Virus genome (UHGV): UHGV-0066004
Source: a virus
Reading direction: 5' to 3' (one strand)
Length of the DNA: 64,000 nucleotides
In this document: piece after piece, positions 1,144-16,067 of the stretch
Numbering within the stretch: the stretch's first letter is position 1
How the letters are laid out: every line of letters begins with the position of its first letter
The notes under the pieces: model-generated
The model's database searches: none
Told to the model about the DNA's origin: nothing
Seen by the model: only the letters and a program-made list of their open reading frames with translations
Program-made: the position numbers and the translations under genes

Positions 1144-1503
1144 ATGAAACGTGAAAACATTATCCACTCTGAAAACTTCGCATTAGGCTTTTATGGTGTA
1201 CCTACTCACCTTGAAAAGTATTATGGTGTGAAGATTCTCTCCAATCTCATTATGGCTTACAAAGATGGTAAGATTAAGCATACTGAGAAGAAACGTGTCA
1301 TGGGCTATATGGCTGTAGGTTCAGCAATCTCGAACATTAAGCTGGAAACAACTAGCAGTCAGATTGTGAAAGACCACTTCATCAAAGAGCTTTACCAGAA
1401 TCTTGATGGTGTAGATGTTCAGGCTGTTTGGCTGGATGTTGACGGTCATAACTACACGAGTTTTGTTTTCAAAAACGACGACATTAAGTGTCTGTTCCCA
1501 TAA
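1144..1503 (+). CDS. hypothetical protein
   Basis: 119-aa ORF, compact operon spacing. Confidence 0.5.
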   Translation: MKRENIIHSENFALGFYGVPTHLEKYYGVKILSNLIMAYKDGKIKHTEKKRVMGYMAVGSAISNIKLETTSSQIVKDHFIKELYQNLDGVDVQAVWLDVDGHNYTSFVFKNDDIKCLFP

Positions 1504-1516
1504 TAGGTGATTAACT

Positions 1517-2032
1517 ATGATTGATATCTACTTACAAGATGCTCATGCAGATTTCCTTAAAACGATGCTTAAAAAGTTTATGGCTTCACAGGGTGATAAT
1601 GAAGCATCTTTTAAAATAGTCACATGTGGCGACGAAGCTGGTTTTGTTGAGATTGAACATGAAGATACTGGAAAGACTGTTTGTAAGTTACCTGATAGCA
1701 TGTTCTCTAACACGTTCTTAACAAAGACTAGTATAAATGTTAAGCTTGTTCCTCAGATTGAAACATACTCTGGTACAGATTACCCTAAAGGTTTTAAGTC
1801 ATTGATGAAGTACTTCTTAGATGACTTTGTGGGTAATCTTCTGAGGGAGGTAAAAGAAAGTCGTACAGTGTTGACTGTAGAGAACATGGGAGGAACTATC
1901 AAGGTCACTTCTGACTGTTTTGTTATGAGCCTCTTCGACTTCGTTCCTAAGAACTTTGATGGTATTCTGGATGAAGAAGATGACTGTGTAGACTTTATAT
2001 TGGTTCTTGAACCAGTTTTTGAGGTTAAATAG
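1517..2032 (+). CDS. hypothetical protein
   Basis: 171-aa ORF. Confidence 0.5.
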   Translation: MIDIYLQDAHADFLKTMLKKFMASQGDNEASFKIVTCGDEAGFVEIEHEDTGKTVCKLPDSMFSNTFLTKTSINVKLVPQIETYSGTDYPKGFKSLMKYFLDDFVGNLLREVKESRTVLTVENMGGTIKVTSDCFVMSLFDFVPKNFDGILDEEDDCVDFILVLEPVFEVK

Positions 2033-2293
2033 ATGAAAATTGAACACTGCTATGAGTCTGATGGAACACCTCTCCGTTGTCCACATTGTGGGTGTACAGA
2101 CTTACAAGGTGAGGTAAGTGAAATAGTCAACGGTCATATTGCTGAAGAAAGTACCCGATGCACAGGGTGTAATGAAATTATCGCTTTCTGGGCTTATGGT
2201 TCATACCAACCATCTCCACATTTTATCTACCATCGTAGTAAAGTTGTGAAGAGTGTCATCAACTGGTTCATTAAGAAAGGGTTTACAAAATGA
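2033..2293 (+). CDS. hypothetical zinc-ribbon protein
   Basis: 86 aa with CPHCGC ... CTGC cysteine pairs. Confidence 0.5.
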   Translation: MKIEHCYESDGTPLRCPHCGCTDLQGEVSEIVNGHIAEESTRCTGCNEIIAFWAYGSYQPSPHFIYHRSKVVKSVINWFIKKGFTK

Positions 2294-2835
2294 TTAAACT
2301 AATATTTGCAAGTGGTGAAAACGGTGAATTTGGTACACCGACTGGTATGCCGTGGCCTCGACATAAGCAAGATATGCAAGAGTTTAAGAGACTCACTAAA
2401 AACAACTTAGTAGTGATGGGTAACGAGACTTTCAAGACTCTGGGGAGTAAACCTTTACCAGAACGTGCAAATCTCATCTTAACAAATTCTGTACCATACT
2501 TAGGCATAGACTTTGGCAAAGATGAGGTAATGTATGCTAAGGCCAGCAAAGAATCCTTTGGAGCATTTTTGAAGTATCTCGATAACTCTATTGATGAAGA
2601 TGTCTTTGTAATTGGTGGTGCAGGTGTCCTTGTCAATGCTTTACCATATGCTGGTGTAGTTTTCCATACAGTTTTCCATAAAGTTACTGAAGAGGCCACT
2701 GTGCATTTACCTTTTGAAAACTTCTTCGATAAACTGTATGATAACCGTGTATTTACAAAGGTACAGTCAAAACCATCAGAGGATGGTAAAGCAACCTTTG
2801 AAATTTATGTTCCACAAGTAAAAGGACACTTTTGA
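2290..2835 (+). CDS. frd: dihydrofolate reductase
   Basis: 181 aa; DHFR-like N-terminus (IFASGENGEFG, MPWP, VVMGNETF); directly upstream of thymidylate synthase as in T4-type phages. Confidence 0.8.
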   Translation: MIKLIFASGENGEFGTPTGMPWPRHKQDMQEFKRLTKNNLVVMGNETFKTLGSKPLPERANLILTNSVPYLGIDFGKDEVMYAKASKESFGAFLKYLDNSIDEDVFVIGGAGVLVNALPYAGVVFHTVFHKVTEEATVHLPFENFFDKLYDNRVFTKVQSKPSEDGKATFEIYVPQVKGHF

Positions 2836-2836
2836 T

Positions 2837-3736
2837 ATGTCACAAGCAGATACAAGTTACAAAAATATCCTGAACCATGTTTTATCCGTTGGTGAACTGC
2901 GTACTACAAGAACTGGAGATGTTATCTCTGCATTTGCTCCACCACAGTTTCGTTTTGATATGCGTACTGGTTTCCCACTCTTAACATCTAAACAGGTGTT
3001 TACAAGGCAAGTTATTGGGGAAGCTTTATGGTTCCTGAACGGTGAGAATAAGCTTGGTGAACTTCGTTACCGTACTTGGGGTGAAAATGATGGGGAACGC
3101 TGGACTATCTGGTCAGATGATTTTAAACGCTGGTTAAGCTCTAACTATTCTTCTGAACAAGATTGGTTAGAGGATGCAGGTGGGAGAATCTACGGGGTTC
3201 AGTGGAGAAACTTTGAAGGTCATAATGGTTGTGTTGTAGACCAGTTAGAGACCTTAGTAACGAAGATGAAAGGTGATATCACAGACCGTTACATGCTTGT
3301 TAATGCTTGGAATGCAGCAGATATTGCAGCTAACTCAATGGCTTTAGCACCTTGTCATGTTCTGTTTCAGATTTATATCACTAACGAAGGTGAAGTTGAC
3401 TTACAATGGTATCAACGTTCTGTAGACACCTTTTTAGGACTTCCGTTTAACATTGCATCTTATGGTTTTATTCTGGAAGTTCTTTGCAAGATGACTGGAT
3501 ACACTCCACGATACTTGATAGGTGTCTTTGGAGATACTCAGATTTATCATAACCATATGAAGCAGGTCTATGAACTGATGAACAATGAAGAGTTTCATGC
3601 ACCTACTTTTGAGATTGGTGTACAGCTTAACACTTTAAGTGACTTAAAACATCTTACTGCAAGTGACTTTATTGGTGGAATTAACAACTACCAACATGCA
3701 GGGAAGATTGAAGCACCTCTGTCAGTAGGTAAGTAA
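2837..3736 (+). CDS. thyA: thymidylate synthase
   Basis: 299 aa; ThyA motifs ALAPCH (active-site Cys) and LGLPFNIASY. Confidence 0.85.
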   Translation: MSQADTSYKNILNHVLSVGELRTTRTGDVISAFAPPQFRFDMRTGFPLLTSKQVFTRQVIGEALWFLNGENKLGELRYRTWGENDGERWTIWSDDFKRWLSSNYSSEQDWLEDAGGRIYGVQWRNFEGHNGCVVDQLETLVTKMKGDITDRYMLVNAWNAADIAANSMALAPCHVLFQIYITNEGEVDLQWYQRSVDTFLGLPFNIASYGFILEVLCKMTGYTPRYLIGVFGDTQIYHNHMKQVYELMNNEEFHAPTFEIGVQLNTLSDLKHLTASDFIGGINNYQHAGKIEAPLSVGK

Positions 3737-3737
3737 A

Positions 3738-3780
3738 ACAAAAAAGGCTCCCGTAAAAAGGAGCCTTAAACTTTATTTTT
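3738..3780. terminator. bidirectional rho-independent terminator hairpin
   Basis: aaggctcc-N8-ggagcctt stem with A-run on one side and T-run on the other, between convergent genes. Confidence 0.6.
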
Positions 3781-4144
3781 CAGTATTCTTTGTGTTCTTC
3801 TCAGTAATAGCTTGCAAGGCTGATACTGATTGAGCCAGATTGTTCACACTGTCAGAGAATTTATCAAGAGTTTTGGTAAGTTTTGCGTTTTCACCCTTAA
3901 CGTTCTCTAACTGAACTTTCTGGTTCTCCATCCCTAGCTGAATCAGTCTCATGTCAGACTGTAAATCACGAATAGCTGAATAGTTACTTTTGGAATAATT
4001 ATCTAGCTGCTGTAACTTTGTTGTGACAGACACTTCTTGTTTACCACTTGAAACTTGCATCGTGGTATACATCCCAATAACACTAAAAATACCAACTACA
4101 ATTGCACCAATATTATTTTTAAAAGCTTCCTCTAGCCACTTCAT
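3773..4144 (-). CDS. hypothetical membrane-anchored coiled-coil protein
   Basis: 123 aa; N-terminal hydrophobic segment IGAIVVGIFSVIGMYTTM then coiled-coil-like sequence. Confidence 0.5.
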   Translation of the reverse strand: MKWLEEAFKNNIGAIVVGIFSVIGMYTTMQVSSGKQEVSVTTKLQQLDNYSKSNYSAIRDLQSDMRLIQLGMENQKVQLENVKGENAKLTKTLDKFSDSVNNLAQSVSALQAITEKNTKNTEK

Positions 4145-4339
4145 TTATTTCTCCCCCTTAAAAGCTTTTTCTAAGTTATCTACGAACTCATCATCAATAG
4201 GCGTGTCTGTTTTACTCGCAAGGTATCTTGCAAGCTTAAAGAACACTTTCTCAATCATGTATTCACTTAGAAGGGATAAAATGAGTTTCCAGAAGAAGCT
4301 ACCTAGATTTTTTAGAAGAATTGCTAGGATTGTAGGCAT
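4145..4339 (-). CDS. hypothetical small membrane protein
   Basis: 64 aa, hydrophobic N-terminus. Confidence 0.4.
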   Translation of the reverse strand: MPTILAILLKNLGSFFWKLILSLLSEYMIEKVFFKLARYLASKTDTPIDDEFVDNLEKAFKGEK

Positions 4340-4418
4340 TTAATCACCTCATCAGCCAAGATGGTGAGAATACCCATAAAGAATATTAACACCATCTTAA
4401 CAATCAGTCAATAAGGGA

Positions 4419-6812
4419 TTAAGCAGTTCTTACCCAAGCCATTAACTTGTAGAACTGGTTAGTAACACTAAATGCTGAACCAGAACCTGTACCACCAGTG
4501 TTACCACTAACTGTATGGGTGTGAGCACCAATACCTACAGAGTGGGTGTGAGCACCAGTGTTACTTGTAGTACCAGACCATGTGTGTGTATGGTTACCAG
4601 TCGTGTTAGTGTTAGGGAACTTGTTATCAGTTCTGTCAAGCCAGTCAAGAGTTCTCGTCTTGTTATTGCTAACAGTTGTATAACCGTACTGAGCATCACC
4701 ACCATTAACCAATAGCAGACCTAAGTGGTGAGCGTGGTTACCAGCAGCACTTGTTGTACCACTTACAGAGTGAGTATGACCACCAGTGCTATTAGTGCTC
4801 TTCGTACCATAATCAAAAGATGAAGTGGTAGCAGAGAAACTATGGGTGTGTGATGGTAAGTTACCAACAGCTAACGTCACAGAATCTGAACCACCTGTTG
4901 TAGCAACATCTGAACCGTTTGCTGCTGCAATTCTGATAGTTCTACCAACACCATTATTCAGGTACGTCCAAGTTAACCCAGGAAGTGCTGTATTGGGGTC
5001 AACATTACTGTTAAACCACGTTACAATACCTACTGGATAGATTTTATTCAGGTCTGTAGAGTCACTAATTGCTTCTGCAATCTTCTGGTCAGTTTCAGCT
5101 TTAGTGTATGCACCAATTTCTGAAGGGGTTGGTTTATCTTGGTCTGTATAGATTTTAGACCATGCCTTCTCAAAACCATACCCATCTCGTGCAGTCCTGT
5201 AAAAAACACCACCATTCCTGTAGATAAACTTAAACTGTGCAGATGGTGTTGAGCCACCACCAATAAACATCTGATAAACTAGTTGTGATGCACCCCCAGT
5301 TTTCATTGTAACATTATACAGACCAGTTCTAGCATTCCAAGCAATACCATCCCCATCACCAACCTCTGTACCATTGCCAGTAGAGATAGCATACATGTAC
5401 CTATAGTCTGCGGTAGATTGCGTGTAATATCTAGCATCTAAGTTAGAGAAATCAGAAGGTTGAACTTGACCAGTAATGGCTAAATTCTTATTCGCAACAA
5501 TTGCTGATGGTTCAAGGGCAATTTGAGTACCAGAGTAACTATTGTTTAAGGTTACCACATTAGAGTTTGGGCCACCTACACCTAACCACCACCTCGATAC
5601 GTTCGCGGTATCCACACCACGGATATATAGTGGTTGACCTTGTGTTAAGTTTTTTAATACTAAGCCTTCATTATTTGATACAATAGTCTGCACATTCACG
5701 AAAGTGTTAGACACATTAATCTTAGCAAGATTATTCAAAGTAGCTGCTGGAATGTATCTAGAGTCAATGTTAGTCCAATCAGATGGTTGAATTTGACCAG
5801 TGATTTTTACACTCTTGTTAAATGTAGCACCAGACGAGTTTAAGACAATTGAGGTATTGCCCTTGTAATCGTAAAATGTGATATTGTCATTTGCATCACC
5901 TTTACCGATATACCACAGATTATTGTTTTCAACATCTTTTGCTAGGATGAACAAAGACTCATTAACAGCTTTATTTTTTAGCATGATAGCAGCAGCATTA
6001 GAGCTAACACTAACATAGTTGCTGAAGGTGTTTAAACCACTAAAAGTGTTATTCGCAGTTAACTGTGCAAACCTATGATTAGCAACTGTCTGAGTGAAGT
6101 ATCTAGCATCTAAGTTAGAGAAGTCAGAAGGCTGAACTTGACCCATGACTCTTAGTGTCTTGTTAAATGACGCTGTTGCGTTAAGGATTAACATTGAGCC
6201 AGTGGCACGATTGTACAGATAAACATTAGTGTTGTTTGCATTTCTCTGTCCAACATACCACGTTTGCTGGTTATTAGCATCTCTACCCTGAATATATGAA
6301 GCTCCTGCATTAGTTGCTTTCTTAAGAGTTAACTGCTCACCATCAACGACAATTGCTTGCCTAATGTTGAAGTTATTTGTTACAGCCAACCTTGCATATC
6401 TTGCATCATTCTCTTTATTAGTTCTCATCCCAAGTTCATTAGGACTTGGTTTATTCAGAGTATGATAAACAGTTGCTGACCTTGAAGCATCTGCAATAGT
6501 TAGCCTAAGACCATTTGCGTTAATTTTAAAAGTCTTTAAAACATCCCCAATATTAATCTCAGAAGAGCCTGTTGGGTCAAATACTGCCTTACCACCATAA
6601 AGTAACTTAACAATCCCTAAGTCACCCGTCATAGTGCTACCAGCAATCTGAACAAATCTTTCAAGTTTAAAAGATGCTAAGAAGTCTTGATAGGTCATTC
6701 GACGGTCTTCATCACCCAGCATTTCAGGTCTCTTTTTAACTCTGACATGAAGAAGGTCATCTGAACGGATTGTATCGATTGAGTTTAACTCACTCAACTT
6801 GTAATCTGCCAT
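4419..6812 (-). CDS. tail fiber protein (large)
   Basis: 797 aa; three internal repeats of G-Q-[VI]-Q-P-S-D-[FW]-[ST]-N-[LI]-D-[AS]-R-Y; His-x-His-rich C-terminus; distal to baseplate genes. Confidence 0.8.
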
Positions 6813-6827
6813 TATAAATTTTCCTCT

Positions 6828-6850
6828 TAAAAGGGGCTATAAAGCCCCTG
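6828..6850 (-). terminator. stem-loop terminator candidate
   Basis: ggggct-ataa-agcccc hairpin with short U-run on minus strand after fiber gene stop. Confidence 0.45.
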
Positions 6851-6858
6851 TAAAGAAA

Positions 6859-8046
6859 TTAAGCTGTTCTCTGCCATACATACAGTACGAATGATGGCTG
6901 CTCAATGTTGAAAGCTTGTCCACCACCAACACTGTTAGTGTTTCCGCTATGTGTATGCTCAGAAGAAGAAACTGTCACAGTACCGTTGTGTGTATGTGAA
7001 CCAATACCAACTGTATGGCTATGAGCACCAATACCCACTGTGTGATTGTGGTTACCAGTTGTGTTAGTGGTAACGCTAAAAGAGTGGGTGTGCGAACCAG
7101 CGACTTCGCAGACAGCATCTGCTGAGTACCACGATTGGTCATTCCTTGTAGACCAAACCATTGCAGGTCTTTCCGATAAACCACCACCTGATTCATAGGT
7201 CAATCTGTGGTTATGAGCACCAGCAGAACTTGTTGACCCACTACCAACATGGTTATGGTTACCAGTTGTGTTAGTGGTCTTAGTTCCATAGTCAAAAGAG
7301 TTGGTAGTCTTAGTTCCATAGTCAAAAGCTGAAATTGACATAGTTGCATTATGAGCATGACCACCACCACTAAGAGACACAGAGTGTGAGTGTTGTGGCA
7401 TATTATTAACTGACAAAGTGACAGTTGAAGCACCAAATACAGAGCCTGCTGGTCTTGTATCAGAGTCATAACCAACCAATGCTCTACCTTTTGAAACTAA
7501 CTCCCAAGTTCCTCCACAAATTAAATACGTAGAAGGGTTTGCAGAGTTCATGGAAAGATGGATAGTACCTACTGGATAAGAAGCCTGAACAGCCTTGTAC
7601 AAGTTATTTACTGCTCTTGCTGTAGCATATTTATCTGCATCTTCGTTATAAAGGTTCGATGTTGTCCAGTTCTGGACATTGCGCAACCCTACCTGTGCCT
7701 TAGTTGTATTGTGTGGGTTGCTCTTGTCCTGAATATGCTGTTGAACAAGATTATTAACCTCTTCTGAAGACATAATCTGTAGATTTGCTCTTGCCTGAGC
7801 TACATTAGTAACGTCTGATAAGTTATTTGCAGCAACTAACTGAAGAGCATTAATAACATTATCTAAACCAATTTGTGTTTTAGTAACACCATGAGGGTTA
7901 TTTCTTAGGCTTGAGTGTGGAGCAAGTAATTGCTCAAGAGTACACCTCTTATCCTCAATACCCTGCTTAAGATGGAAGATATCACTAAGGTCAATTGGTA
8001 AGGCTGCTTGAGGCAAGGCACTAATTTGAATTTCACCTACTGCCAT
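6859..8046 (-). CDS. tail fiber protein (second)
   Basis: 395 aa; C-terminal HxH motifs similar to the 797-aa fiber; duplicated SFDYGTKTTN segment. Confidence 0.75.
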   Translation of the reverse strand: MAVGEIQISALPQAALPIDLSDIFHLKQGIEDKRCTLEQLLAPHSSLRNNPHGVTKTQIGLDNVINALQLVAANNLSDVTNVAQARANLQIMSSEEVNNLVQQHIQDKSNPHNTTKAQVGLRNVQNWTTSNLYNEDADKYATARAVNNLYKAVQASYPVGTIHLSMNSANPSTYLICGGTWELVSKGRALVGYDSDTRPAGSVFGASTVTLSVNNMPQHSHSVSLSGGGHAHNATMSISAFDYGTKTTNSFDYGTKTTNTTGNHNHVGSGSTSSAGAHNHRLTYESGGGLSERPAMVWSTRNDQSWYSADAVCEVAGSHTHSFSVTTNTTGNHNHTVGIGAHSHTVGIGSHTHNGTVTVSSSEHTHSGNTNSVGGGQAFNIEQPSFVLYVWQRTA

Positions 8047-8048
8047 TA

Positions 8049-16067
<8,019 letters not shown>

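What the first reader, a model, noticed from the sequence alone, without database searches (positions are those of the whole stretch)
4419..8046. Two tail fibers with shared His-x-His-rich tips and a triplicated internal domain
The 797-aa fiber has three copies of a ~25-aa segment (GQ[VI]QPSD[FW][ST]N[LI]D[AS]RY) and both fibers end in dense HxH motifs ([25 protein letters not shown]; in the 395-aa fiber GSHTHSFSV, GNHNHTVGIGAHSHTVGIGSHTHNG). Such motifs coordinate metal ions in the T4 long-fiber tip. Shared tips on two fibers suggest domain duplication/exchange at the receptor-binding end, a typical host-range hotspot.
Basis: partly seen in the sequence, partly recalled or inferred. Interest (0 to 1): 0.4.

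Follow-up and report, generated by a model that had tools for sequence, protein, structure and literature searches.

The report
Felix O1-type phage short and long tail fibres
These are the short and long tail fibres of a Felix O1-like E. coli phage. Both carry a T4-type, histidine-and-metal-stabilised receptor-binding tip whose small end domain is swapped between phages, an arrangement already described in the literature.

Summary
ORF 4419..6812(-) (797 aa) and ORF 6859..8046(-) (395 aa) are the long (LTF) and short (STF) tail fibres of a Felixounavirus. The LTF has 6 HxH motifs and the STF has 9; none of 20,000 shuffles reached either count. Both C-termini match the solved T4 gp37 tip 2XGF (E 7e-20 and 6e-27), with the HxH motifs in register with T4's iron-binding ones.

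The "25-aa triplicated segment" is the conserved joint of three tandem ~110-aa domains. Each passes Pfam PF20744 on its own and resembles the T7 gp17 pyramid domain and T4 gp34 repeats.

One refinement: the chain doubles back, so the receptor-contacting end is the 38-45-aa His-free "head" between the HxH blocks, not the C-terminus. In this phage the two heads are unrelated (16% identity). Only the scaffold is shared (35% identity), and it is old.

Exchange is confirmed:
- The LTF cassette (aa 662-768) is 84-87% nt identical to gp37 of some Tequatrovirus phages.
- In phage L27 the same cassette is 91% nt identical to T4 gp37.
- Felix O1 carries one head type on both fibres (94% identity).

All essentials were published in 2010, 2015 and in the Bas63 cryo-EM paper of 2025. 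Verdict: already known, low interest.

The parts
4419..6812 (-). Long tail fibre (LTF) gene, 797 aa; counterpart of Bas63 gp27 and Felix O1 gp77
   Evidence: ORF. phrog_4277 tail fibre covers it end to end (E=0). 91.7% aa identity to Felixounavirus LF82P1 and 98% to protein cluster P0001.
6438..6812 (-). LTF aa 1-125: conserved N-terminal baseplate-attachment region
   Evidence: 89-94% mean identity across 13 Ounavirinae LTFs. No Pfam hit. Bas63 paper assigns this part to baseplate binding.
6099..6437 (-). LTF repeat unit 1 (aa 126-238), PF20744 domain ending in [15 protein letters not shown]
   Evidence: PF20744 E 1.6e-19 on its own. Repeat alignment. Variable core aa 151-210. AF2 pLDDT about 67-88 over aa 151-220.
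5754..6098 (-). LTF repeat unit 2 (aa 239-353), PF20744 domain ending in [15 protein letters not shown]
   Evidence: PF20744 E 3.4e-16. Matches T7 gp17 4A0T/4A0U over aa 280-342. Variable core aa 271-330.
5427..5753 (-). LTF repeat unit 3 (aa 354-462), PF20744 domain ending in [15 protein letters not shown]
   Evidence: PF20744 E 1.7e-25. Repeat alignment.
5046..5426 (-). LTF aa 463-589: Mu S-like domain (PF12604 gp37_C)
   Evidence: PF12604 E 6.5e-22. Mu tail fibre S 8JU3 E 2e-25 over aa 473-579. Foldseek top hit is 8JU3. Variable core aa 481-540.
4851..5045 (-). LTF aa 590-654: collar-type domain, conserved within Felixounavirus
   Evidence: Aligns with the STF collar. Gp10_C hit is weak and below the Pfam cut-off. 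91-93% mean identity across relatives.
4510..4829 (-). LTF exchange cassette (gene nt 1984-2303, aa 662-768): FDYGTK box, ascending HxH, head, descending Hx[11 protein letters not shown] box
   Evidence: 86.9% nt identity over 320 nt to Tequatrovirus BYEP01 gp37 and 84.2% to SHBML-50-1 gp37. The same start coordinate in phage L27 gives 90.6% nt identity to T4 gp37. Flanks are Felixounavirus-specific.
4599..4724 (-). LTF head domain (aa 697-738), predicted receptor-contacting distal end
   Evidence: Lies between HxHH 693-696 and HxH 741. 28-38% mean identity across relatives. The head plus its flanking needle (72-aa query) matches 36 phage records, 6 of them Tequatrovirus-size records from 5 phages.
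4422..4508 (-). LTF aa 769-797: lineage-specific conserved C-terminal tail [29 protein letters not shown], predicted to return to the collar
   Evidence: 95% mean identity across relatives. Differs from the T4 gp37 C-terminus.
6859..8046 (-). Short tail fibre (STF) gene, 395 aa; counterpart of Bas63 gp26 and Felix O1 gp76
   Evidence: ORF. 99% aa identity to the phage L27 fibre. 2XGF E 5.7e-27 over aa 146-367.
7600..8046 (-). STF aa 1-149: conserved N-terminal attachment and helical region
   Evidence: 89-98% mean identity across 14 relatives. AF2 predicts helices at 37-46, 67-106 and 143-156.
7393..7599 (-). STF aa 150-218: collar domain (PF21939 Gp10_C type)
   Evidence: PF21939 E 3e-20, above the cut-off. 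T4 gp10 chains 2FKK and 5HX2 match aa 144-220. AF2 pLDDT mostly 76-87.
7207..7392 (-). STF ascending needle strand (aa 219-280) with 4 HxH and a tandem FDYGTKTTN duplication
   Evidence: HxH at 219, 230, 264, 278. 30-nt tandem copies at 7270-7299 and 7300-7329, 90% identical (family D10).
7093..7206 (-). STF head domain (aa 281-318), predicted receptor-contacting distal end
   Evidence: 40-43% mean identity across relatives. The head plus its flanking needle (65-aa query) matches 32 records, all Felixounavirus-type. 16% identical to the LTF head.
6949..7092 (-). STF descending needle strand (aa 319-366) with 5 HxH
   Evidence: HxH at 319, 333, 342, 351, 364. In register with T4 HxH 966/980/989/998.
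8049..8351 (-). 100-aa protein upstream of the STF, likely counterpart of the Bas63 LTF-platform gp25 (context)
   Evidence: ORF. phrog_4141 E 2e-62. Same position in all 14 relatives. The role is taken from PMC12609058, and the correspondence is inferred from gene order.

Best explanation
The window comes from a Felix O1-like myophage (Felixounavirus). The two ORFs are its short (395 aa) and long (797 aa) tail fibres. Both are homotrimers attached to the baseplate by conserved N-termini.

Both end in a T4-gp37-type receptor-binding module made of three parts:
- a collar domain;
- a needle, in which each chain runs out, reverses and runs back, giving a six-stranded beta-structure;
- a small head domain at the reversal point.

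Each HxH motif, contributed by all three chains, is predicted to form one octahedral metal site (iron in T4) on the three-fold axis. That gives 6 predicted sites in the LTF and 9 in the STF. The histidines therefore rivet the needle together and do not touch the receptor. Specificity lies in the His-free head (LTF aa 697-738, STF aa 281-318), probably for LPS-core structures.

The LTF shaft is built from three tandem ~110-aa beta domains of the T7-gp17-pyramid / T4-gp34 type, followed by a Mu-S-like domain. These are joined by invariant linkers ([15 protein letters not shown]...).

Evolution works by cassette exchange. Conserved linkers and the FDYGTK / VGIGAHxHTV boxes flank variable cores and heads. 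These have been swapped independently between Felixounaviruses, with gp37 of T-even phages, and in Felix O1-like Salmonella phages between the STF and LTF of one genome.

Shown here: gene identities, homologies, motif register, mosaic pattern and cassette boundaries. Inferred: trimer topology, metal occupancy, and the receptor-binding role and receptor type of the heads.
For: Identity and synteny: megablast 96.8% to Felixounavirus LF82P1. The gene order (489-aa and 285-aa baseplate proteins, 100-aa protein, STF, LTF, 64-aa ORF, 123-aa ORF, thymidylate synthase) is conserved where the flanks were fetched, and the core STF-LTF-downstream order holds in all 14 relatives.

T4 tip homology: 2XGF E 7.1e-20 (LTF 650-776) and 5.7e-27 (STF 146-367). 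The alignment puts LTF HxH 655/679/693/741/755/764 and STF HxH 219/264/278/319/333/342/351 in register with T4 883/915/929/966/980/989/998. T4 H929/H931 bind iron, there are seven irons along the needle, and the tip residues are essential for receptor binding (PMC6957217).

Bas63 cryo-EM describes exactly this architecture for its gp26 and gp27 (PMC12609058).

HxH enrichment: 0 of 20,000 shuffles.

Repeats: each of three units passes PF20744. The repeat profile hits T7 gp17 residues 368-436 at E about 3e-8 to 6e-8. The AF2 repeat domains have pLDDT mostly 77-92 and superpose on 4A0T/4A0U at 1.3-1.5 A over 64-66 residues. T4 gp34 is hit at E ~1e-5, and Mu 8JU3 is the top hit.

Mosaicism: windowed identities show hypervariable cores and heads between conserved joints, with a different nearest relative per module.

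Cassette exchange: nt identities of 84-91% to Tequatrovirus/T4 gp37, with the same start coordinate (gene nt 1984) in the window and L27 LTFs. Felix O1 STF and LTF heads are 94% identical and JH2 heads 71%. The Felix O1 head type is found in 90 records, 80 of them Salmonella phages, and occurs at 149 places in those 90 records, so most carry it twice, consistent with both fibres. The window's heads are almost confined to E. coli/Shigella phages.
Against: No trimer model, metal analysis or binding data exist for this phage.

AlphaFold2 monomer models are low-confidence in the tips: LTF 580-797 has pLDDT ~30 and the STF head is below 50. Foldseek with the STF model did not recover 2XGF.

The LTF collar scores below the Pfam cut-off for Gp10_C (18.6-24.3 bits against 27).

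No gp38/Tfa-type chaperone was found, although T4-type tips are reported to need one (PMC9659904).

The receptor is not known. LPS is inferred from the genus (PMC8594841; supplement of 10.64898/2026.04.02.716166).
Confidence: 0.9

Rival explanations
1. The two fibre tips are the product of a recent duplication or gene conversion within this genome, so both fibres recognise the same receptor.
For: The tips are homologous (35% identity, E 8e-22). In Felix O1 and JH2 the two heads really are near-identical (94% and 71%), with 77-81% nt identity over ~270 nt.
Against: In this window the heads are 16% identical. DNA similarity between the two genes is limited to 54-81-nt stretches at 75-80% in the conserved boxes. 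Over the aligned tip module the STF is 41% identical both to T4 gp37 and to its own LTF partner.
Confidence: 0.05
2. The 395-aa protein is a baseplate structural protein of the T4 gp10 type, not a fibre, as its only Pfam hit (Gp10_C) would suggest.
For: PF21939 Gp10_C E 2.6e-18. PDB gp10 chains match aa 144-220. Foldseek's top hits with the STF model are gp10 chains.
Against: The gp10 similarity covers only the collar. 2XGF matches collar plus needle over aa 146-367 at E 5.7e-27. phrog_2097 tail fibre scores E 1e-136. Bas63 cryo-EM shows the corresponding protein as a 430-A fibre.
Confidence: 0.03
3. The HxH-rich stretches themselves form the receptor-binding surface, for example by metal-mediated binding to LPS phosphates, and the insert between them is only a loop.
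For: The motifs are dense and conserved.
Against: In T4 the homologous histidines coordinate buried iron on the trimer axis, and receptor-binding residues map to the tip subdomain (PMC6957217). Here the HxH blocks are conserved across phages with different hosts, while the insert is hypervariable and tracks host genus.
Confidence: 0.03

Closest known systems
Bas63 (Escherichia phage JohannRWettstein) STF gp26 and LTF gp27, Felixounavirus (PMC12609058)
   Same: Same genus, and the wedge-protein lengths match those the paper reports (285 and 489 aa). Both fibres have a collar/needle/head tip with HxH motifs. The LTF has 6 di-His motifs, one of them with an extra adjacent His. Beta repeat domains are joined by short helical connectors. 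Tips and repeat cores are variable across the genus.
   Different: This phage's STF has 9 HxH motifs and a duplicated FDYGTK unit, whereas 7 are reported for Bas63. The extra His is HxHH here (693/695/696) and HHxH in Bas63. Only three of the five structural repeat domains are detectable as sequence repeats. The head alleles may differ; Bas63's were not compared directly.
T4 gp37 receptor-binding tip (PDB 2XGF)
   Same: Collar, needle with HxH iron sites, and chain reversal at a small head. Sequence homology at E 1e-20 to 1e-27 with motifs in register. Some Tequatrovirus gp37 alleles carry the same head cassette as this LTF at 84-87% nt identity.
   Different: The fibre body is unrelated. There are 6 or 9 HxH layers here against 7 in T4. 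The C-terminal tail is different. No gp38 gene lies downstream.
T7 gp17 pyramid domain (4A0T/4A0U) and T4 gp34 shaft repeats (4UXE/5NXH); Pfam PF20744
   Same: Each of the three LTF repeat units matches PF20744. The profile hit to gp17 residues 368-436 scores E about 3e-8 to 6e-8. Superposition gives rmsd 1.3-1.5 A at 33% identity. The gp34-like serial arrangement is also recovered.
   Different: There are three tandem copies with invariant linkers here, against a single copy in T7. No sequence-level match to gp34 was found.
Phage Mu tail fibre S (8JU3/5YVQ) and P2 gpH-type fibres; Pfam PF12604
   Same: LTF aa 473-579 matches Mu S residues 324-427 at E 2e-25. The same region matches P2-like and Mu-like fibres by tblastn.
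   Different: In this LTF the domain is internal and is followed by the T4-type tip.
Lambda Stf (orf-314) and the 'T4- and lambda-based RBP family' (PMC9659904)
   Same: A ~215-aa distal module shared across more than 200 enteric phages, with divergence centred on the specificity region.
   Different: That family is described as always having a Tfa/gp38 gene immediately downstream. None is detectable here.

Membership tests
T4 gp37-type receptor-binding tip (collar-needle-head, PDB 2XGF) | Significant sequence homology to the solved tip | tested here: met
   phmmer against PDB: LTF 650-776 E 7.1e-20; STF 146-367 E 5.7e-27.
T4 gp37-type receptor-binding tip (collar-needle-head, PDB 2XGF) | HxH motifs on both the outgoing and returning strand, in register with T4's seven iron-binding motifs | tested here: met
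   The LTF matches 6 of 7. The STF matches 7 of 7 and has 2 extra layers.
T4 gp37-type receptor-binding tip (collar-needle-head, PDB 2XGF) | gp10/gp12-type collar domain preceding the needle | tested here: met
   STF: PF21939 at 67.7-74 bits against a cut-off of 27. The LTF collar is below the cut-off (18.6-24.3 bits) but aligns with the STF collar, so it is weaker for the LTF.
T4 gp37-type receptor-binding tip (collar-needle-head, PDB 2XGF) | Chain reversal at a small head domain, giving a six-stranded trimeric needle | tested here: inconclusive
   The sequence layout fits: two HxH blocks around a 38-45-aa insert. AF2 monomer models show strands on both sides (STF 222-272 and 321-369; LTF 679-687 and 741-749) but with low confidence. 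No multimer tool was available.
T4 gp37-type receptor-binding tip (collar-needle-head, PDB 2XGF) | Octahedral Fe(II) sites formed by 3 x HxH | not testable with these tools
   Needs a trimer structure or metal analysis.
T4 gp37-type receptor-binding tip (collar-needle-head, PDB 2XGF) | gp38/Tfa-type assembly chaperone gene directly downstream (an associated feature, described as constant in PMC9659904) | tested here: not met
   tblastn of two gp38 proteins and lambda Tfa against the window: best E 0.065, in a non-coding stretch. No Felixounavirus-size record appears in the 30-row sample listed from the 360 gp38 matches, and 'Felixounavirus' is absent from the top ten organism names.
Felixounavirus STF/LTF pair (Bas63 gp26/gp27) | Conserved baseplate-fibre gene order and protein sizes | tested here: met
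   489-aa, 285-aa and 100-aa proteins, then STF, LTF, 64-aa ORF and 123-aa ORF, facing thymidylate synthase. This order is seen in the window and in the relatives fetched with wide flanks (L001-L006). STF, LTF and the downstream genes are conserved in all 14 relatives.
Felixounavirus STF/LTF pair (Bas63 gp26/gp27) | High identity of the N-terminal attachment regions to genus members | tested here: met
   STF aa 1-60 96-98% and LTF aa 1-120 89-94% mean identity.
PF20744 (gp37_trimer) / T7 gp17 pyramid-type domain | Each copy above Pfam's gathering score | tested here: met
   70.1, 59.5 and 89.3 bits against a cut-off of 21.7.
PF20744 (gp37_trimer) / T7 gp17 pyramid-type domain | Fold match to the solved T7 gp17 pyramid domain | tested here: met
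   Foldseek against 4A0T/4A0U: rmsd 1.3-1.5 A over 64-66 residues, probability 1.00. Profile hit at E 3.3e-8.
PF12604 (gp37_C) / Mu S-type domain | Above the gathering score, with a match to solved Mu S | tested here: met
   72-77.9 bits against a cut-off of 22.5. 8JU3 E 2e-25. Foldseek rank 1.

The most novel reading that the evidence does not exclude
Felixounaviruses assemble genuine T4-gp37-type iron-needle tips without any gp38/Tfa-type chaperone gene. This includes head cassettes 84-91% nt identical to those of T-even phages that do have gp38 next door. That would imply one of three things: an unrecognised chaperone (positional candidate: the conserved 64-aa ORF 4145..4339(-) directly downstream of the LTF), self-chaperoning by the lineage-specific C-terminal 29-residue tail, or reliance on host factors.

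In addition, the same ~320-nt head cassette appears to circulate among three compartments (LTF, STF and Tequatrovirus gp37) through recombination at the FDYGTK / VGIGAHxHTV boxes. Salmonella-infecting lineages put one head on both fibres, while this E. coli lineage carries two different heads.
Probability: 0.2. Interest if true: 0.45.

Novelty: already known. Interest (0 to 1): 0.2.

Why it matters
It matters mainly as annotation and engineering information. The analysis fixes which ~40 residues of each fibre are the likely host-range determinants. It also fixes where natural recombination joints lie: LTF aa 662 and 768, plus the invariant GQVQPSD...ARY linkers. These are the sensible cut points for swapping heads to retarget Felix O1-type therapeutic or diagnostic phages. 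It adds no new biology beyond the published Felix O1, VpaE1 and Bas63 work. The possible exceptions are the unexplained lack of a gp38/Tfa-type chaperone and the finding that Salmonella lineages carry one head on both fibres.

Tried and rejected
(1) AlphaFold2 monomer prediction of both fibres, with 77- and 75-sequence alignments. The shaft repeats and the STF collar were confident. The tips were not (LTF 580-797 pLDDT ~30; STF head below 50). This is not evidence of disorder, because the needle is an intertwined trimer. No multimer tool was available.

(2) Foldseek of the STF model against the PDB found only weak gp10 collar hits and not 2XGF.

(3) hhalign of the repeat profile against the LTF N-terminal 125 aa and against the Mu-S-like domain found no relationship beyond a 17-residue linker. 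The 'five repeat domains' of the Bas63 paper are therefore visible as only three sequence repeats.

(4) A search for a gp38/Tfa chaperone in the window and in the phage collection found none for this genus. T4 gp57A was not tested because no sequence was at hand.

(5) I tried to infer the LTF receptor from the Tequatrovirus phages that share its head. None of them is in the receptor-screen supplement.

(6) The chance or low-complexity explanation of the HxH motifs was rejected by shuffling.

(7) Recent intragenomic duplication was rejected for this phage.

(8) The conservation profile from the deep LTF alignment A2 was uninformative, because the 120 best hits are all close relatives of the query. 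The 14-genome panel was used instead.

(9) The original T4 tip structure paper (PMC2996694) is not held. T4 facts are cited through PMC6957217 and PMC12609058.
Full report
WHAT IS THERE

Megablast of the region finds 245 phage records, nearly all Felix O1-like myophages. The best is Felixounavirus LF82P1 at 96.8% identity.

The surrounding gene order is as follows: 489-aa and 285-aa baseplate wedge proteins, a 100-aa protein, the 395-aa fibre, the 797-aa fibre, a 64-aa ORF and a 123-aa ORF that relatives annotate as holin. A terminator-like hairpin follows at 3744-3767, and the operon faces a convergent thymidylate synthase gene. The relatives fetched with wide flanks show this full order, and all 14 Ounavirinae loci share the STF, LTF and downstream genes.

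In the Bas63 cryo-EM paper (PMC12609058) the wedge proteins are reported at these same lengths (285 and 489 aa), and a platform protein, a short tail fibre (STF, gp26) and a long tail fibre (LTF, gp27) complete the set. By gene order, the window's 100-aa protein corresponds to the platform and its two fibres to gp26 and gp27.

CHECKING THE OBSERVATION

All quoted strings are present, and the 15-residue motif occurs at LTF aa 224, 339 and 448. The LTF has 6 HxH motifs and the STF has 9. In 20,000 shuffles of each protein the means were 0.30 and 1.40 and the maxima were 4 and 7, so the density is not chance.

Two corrections are needed. First, the repeat is three tandem units of about 110 aa (126-238, 239-353, 354-462). 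Second, the HxH motifs lie in two blocks that bracket a His-poor insert of 45 aa (LTF) or 38 aa (STF).

WHAT THE PARTS ARE

Both C-termini match the crystal structure of the T4 gp37 receptor-binding tip, 2XGF: LTF 650-776 at E 7e-20 and STF 146-367 at E 6e-27. In a joint alignment the LTF motifs 655/679/693 and 741/755/764, and the STF motifs 219/264/278 and 319/333/342/351, sit in register with T4's 883/915/929 and 966/980/989/998. The STF has one extra layer on each strand (230 and 364).

In T4, histidines H929 and H931 of the three chains coordinate iron, and seven such irons line the needle. The collar domain D10 is formed by residues 811-881 plus 1010-1026, so the chain returns to its start. 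Residues of the tip subdomain between the His blocks are essential for receptor binding (PMC6957217).

The STF collar is a clear PF21939 (gp10-type) domain. The LTF collar is weaker, but it aligns with the STF collar.

Each of the three LTF repeat units passes Pfam PF20744 on its own. A profile of 42 such units hits the T7 gp17 pyramid domain, residues 368-436, at E about 3e-8 to 6e-8. LTF aa 463-589 is a PF12604 domain that matches Mu tail fibre S at E 2e-25.

AlphaFold2 (monomer, 77-sequence alignment) models the three repeat domains with pLDDT mostly 77-92. Foldseek then returns Mu S, the T4 gp34 shaft (E ~1e-5) and T7 gp17 (rmsd 1.3-1.5 A over 64-66 residues). This agrees with the Bas63 description of gp34-like beta repeat domains joined by short helical connectors.

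HOW IT MOST LIKELY WORKS

By homology, both fibres are trimers whose distal module is a collar plus a six-stranded needle. The needle is held together by stacked metal sites, each made of three HxH motifs. That predicts 6 sites in the LTF and 9 in the STF.

The chain reverses at a small head domain, which is the actual distal end and the receptor contact. The extreme C-terminus returns to the collar. So the histidines are structural, and specificity sits in LTF aa 697-738 and STF aa 281-318. The receptor is probably an LPS-core structure, as reported for the genus (PMC8594841; the receptor-screen supplement lists Bas63 under LPS, HepIV). It was not determined here.

Homology, motif register and domain order are shown. 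Trimer topology, metal occupancy and receptor are inferred.

TESTING THE EXCHANGE / HOST-RANGE HOTSPOT IDEA

I aligned the fibres of 14 Ounavirinae with the window's (13 for the LTF, because Si3's is split) and computed identity in 30-residue windows.

The STF is conserved at aa 1-210 and 331-395. It drops to about 40% mean identity at 271-330, which is the head.

The LTF is conserved at aa 1-150, 571-660 and 751-797. Its variable stretches are 151-210, 271-330, parts of 361-450, 481-540 and 691-750 (the head). Each variable stretch has a different nearest relative:
- L27 for 151-210;
- LF82P1 and ph2-2 for 271-330;
- JH2 and LF82P1 for 391-450;
- LF82P1 for 481-540;
- LF82P1 and KhF1 for the head.

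This pattern is module shuffling, not uniform divergence.

The tip cassette has sharp boundaries. LTF gene nt 1984-2303 (aa 662-768; window 4510..4829) is 86.9% nt identical to gp37 of Tequatrovirus BYEP01 and 84.2% to that of Shigella phage SHBML-50-1. The collar upstream and the C-terminal tail downstream are Felixounavirus-specific. In phage L27 a cassette starting at the same coordinate (gene nt 1984) is 90.6% nt identical to T4 gp37 itself.

Within genomes, the Felix O1 STF and LTF heads are 94% identical (81% nt over 270 nt) and the JH2 heads are 71% identical. In the window phage the two heads are only 16% identical, and the two genes share only short matches in the conserved boxes.

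Head type also tracks host. The Felix O1 head occurs in 90 records, 80 of them Salmonella phages. It occurs at 149 places in those 90 records, so most carry it twice, consistent with both fibres. It also appears in Salmonella T4-like and P2-like phages. The window's LTF head occurs in 36 records, mostly E. coli/Shigella phages, and its STF head in 32 Felixounavirus-type records.

One refinement applies: in this phage the shared element is the old scaffold (35% identity), and the two heads are different. The two fibres probably recognise different structures.

COMPARISON WITH WHAT IS KNOWN

None of this is new in kind.
- The Felix O1 genome paper (2010) already noted gp37 homology at the C-termini of both fibres (PMC3185647).
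- The VpaE1 paper (2015) reported the same, together with conserved N-termini and a variable middle and C-terminus (PMC4690856).
- A 2022 paper defined a 'T4- and lambda-based RBP family' of more than 200 phages that share this ~215-aa module (PMC9659904).
- The Bas63 cryo-EM paper (2025) describes the collar/needle/head tips, the di-His counts, the repeat domains and their variability across the genus.

The details added here are minor. This phage's STF has 9 HxH motifs and a duplicated FDYGTK unit, against 7 reported for Bas63. The exact cassette boundaries are mapped. Cross-family nt identities to Tequatrovirus and T4 gp37 are given. Felix O1-type Salmonella phages carry the same head on both fibres.

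WHAT REMAINS ODD

T4-type tips are reported to need gp38 and gp57A, and a Tfa/gp38 gene is said to be always directly downstream in this RBP family. No gp38/Tfa homologue is detectable in the 64-kb window (best E 0.065, in a non-coding stretch). No Felixounavirus-size record appears in the 30-row sample listed from the 360 phage records that match gp38, and 'Felixounavirus' is absent from the top organism names. I did not resolve this point.

LIMITS

The tips came out at low confidence and Foldseek did not recover 2XGF. That result says nothing about disorder in the trimer. Metal binding and receptor specificity are untested.

VERDICT

Novelty: already known. Interest: 0.2.

Noticed in passing
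whole window; fibre operon end 3744-4419: No gp38/Tfa-type tail-fibre assembly chaperone was detectable anywhere in the 64-kb window. Yet the LTF head cassette is ~87% nt identical to Tequatrovirus gp37 alleles that have gp38 immediately downstream. gp57A was not tested.
   Followed up: partly
window 4145..4339(-) and 3773..4144(-); terminator-like hairpin 3744-3767: A conserved 64-aa ORF (phrog_402, unknown function, hydrophobic N-terminus) and a 123-aa TM plus coiled-coil ORF (annotated holin in relatives) follow the LTF. They end at a hairpin that scores as terminator-like on both strands, shared with the convergent thymidylate synthase gene. The role of the 64-aa protein is unknown.
   Followed up: partly
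window 7270-7329 (STF aa ~240-259): Tandem 30-nt duplication (90% identical) encoding FDYGTKTTN twice. Among relatives the number of FD(Y/H)G units (1 to about 4) and of HxH motifs (7 or 9 in STFs, 4 or 6 in LTFs) varies. This suggests a needle-length polymorphism.
   Followed up: partly
L011 (Felix O1) 284-1450 and 1501-3849; L009 (JH2): Felix O1 and JH2 carry nearly the same head domain on their own STF and LTF (94% and 71% aa). The Felix O1 head type is found almost only in Salmonella phages, including T4-like and P2-like ones. None of the papers read here mentions this.
   Followed up: partly
L001 (phage L27) LTF gene nt 1984-2270 vs L015 (T4 gene 37) nt 2692-2978: 90.6% nt identity over 287 nt between a Felixounavirus LTF and T4 gp37. 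This points to a fairly recent cross-family transfer of the T4 head cassette.
   Followed up: yes
L003 (ph2-2), L004 (H12), L014 (KPS64) LTF C-termini: Alternative LTF tips with only 4 HxH motifs. H12 and KPS64 have a long (67-aa) His-free insert containing a motif like GTMEITG...FRSD..SFYTASGAF; ph2-2's insert is 31 aa. This is a different tip design on the same collar and C-terminal tail.
   Followed up: no
proteins P0019-P0047 etc. (856-aa LTF variants): Many metagenomic LTF relatives are 856 aa and lack the PF12604 (Mu-S-like) domain, while several of those checked keep the same head type as the window. This indicates an alternative middle module.
   Followed up: no
L006 (Salmonella phage Si3) 4418-5779 and 5826-6761: The LTF is split into two ORFs (453 and 311 aa) in this record. 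This is probably a frameshift or sequencing error. The Bas63 paper also flags the Si3 LTF as incomplete.
   Followed up: no
GU169904.1 'Staphylococcus phage SA1' (hits H94, H235): A 147-kb record labelled as a Staphylococcus phage encodes a full-length Felixounavirus-type LTF (64% identity) and matches the Felix O1 head type at two places. The record looks chimeric or mislabelled.
   Followed up: no
L008 (KhF1) locus 3137-3146, inside the LTF gene: The depositors annotate a 10-nt 'cos' site within the LTF coding sequence of the KhF/XTG phages. It is probably just a pattern match and was not examined.
   Followed up: no
window 2290..2835(+) and 2837..3736(+): The 2837..3736 ORF lies where relatives annotate thymidylate synthase. 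The adjacent 181-aa ORF looks, from its sequence alone, like a dihydrofolate reductase. Both converge on the end of the fibre operon. No family search was run on either.
   Followed up: no
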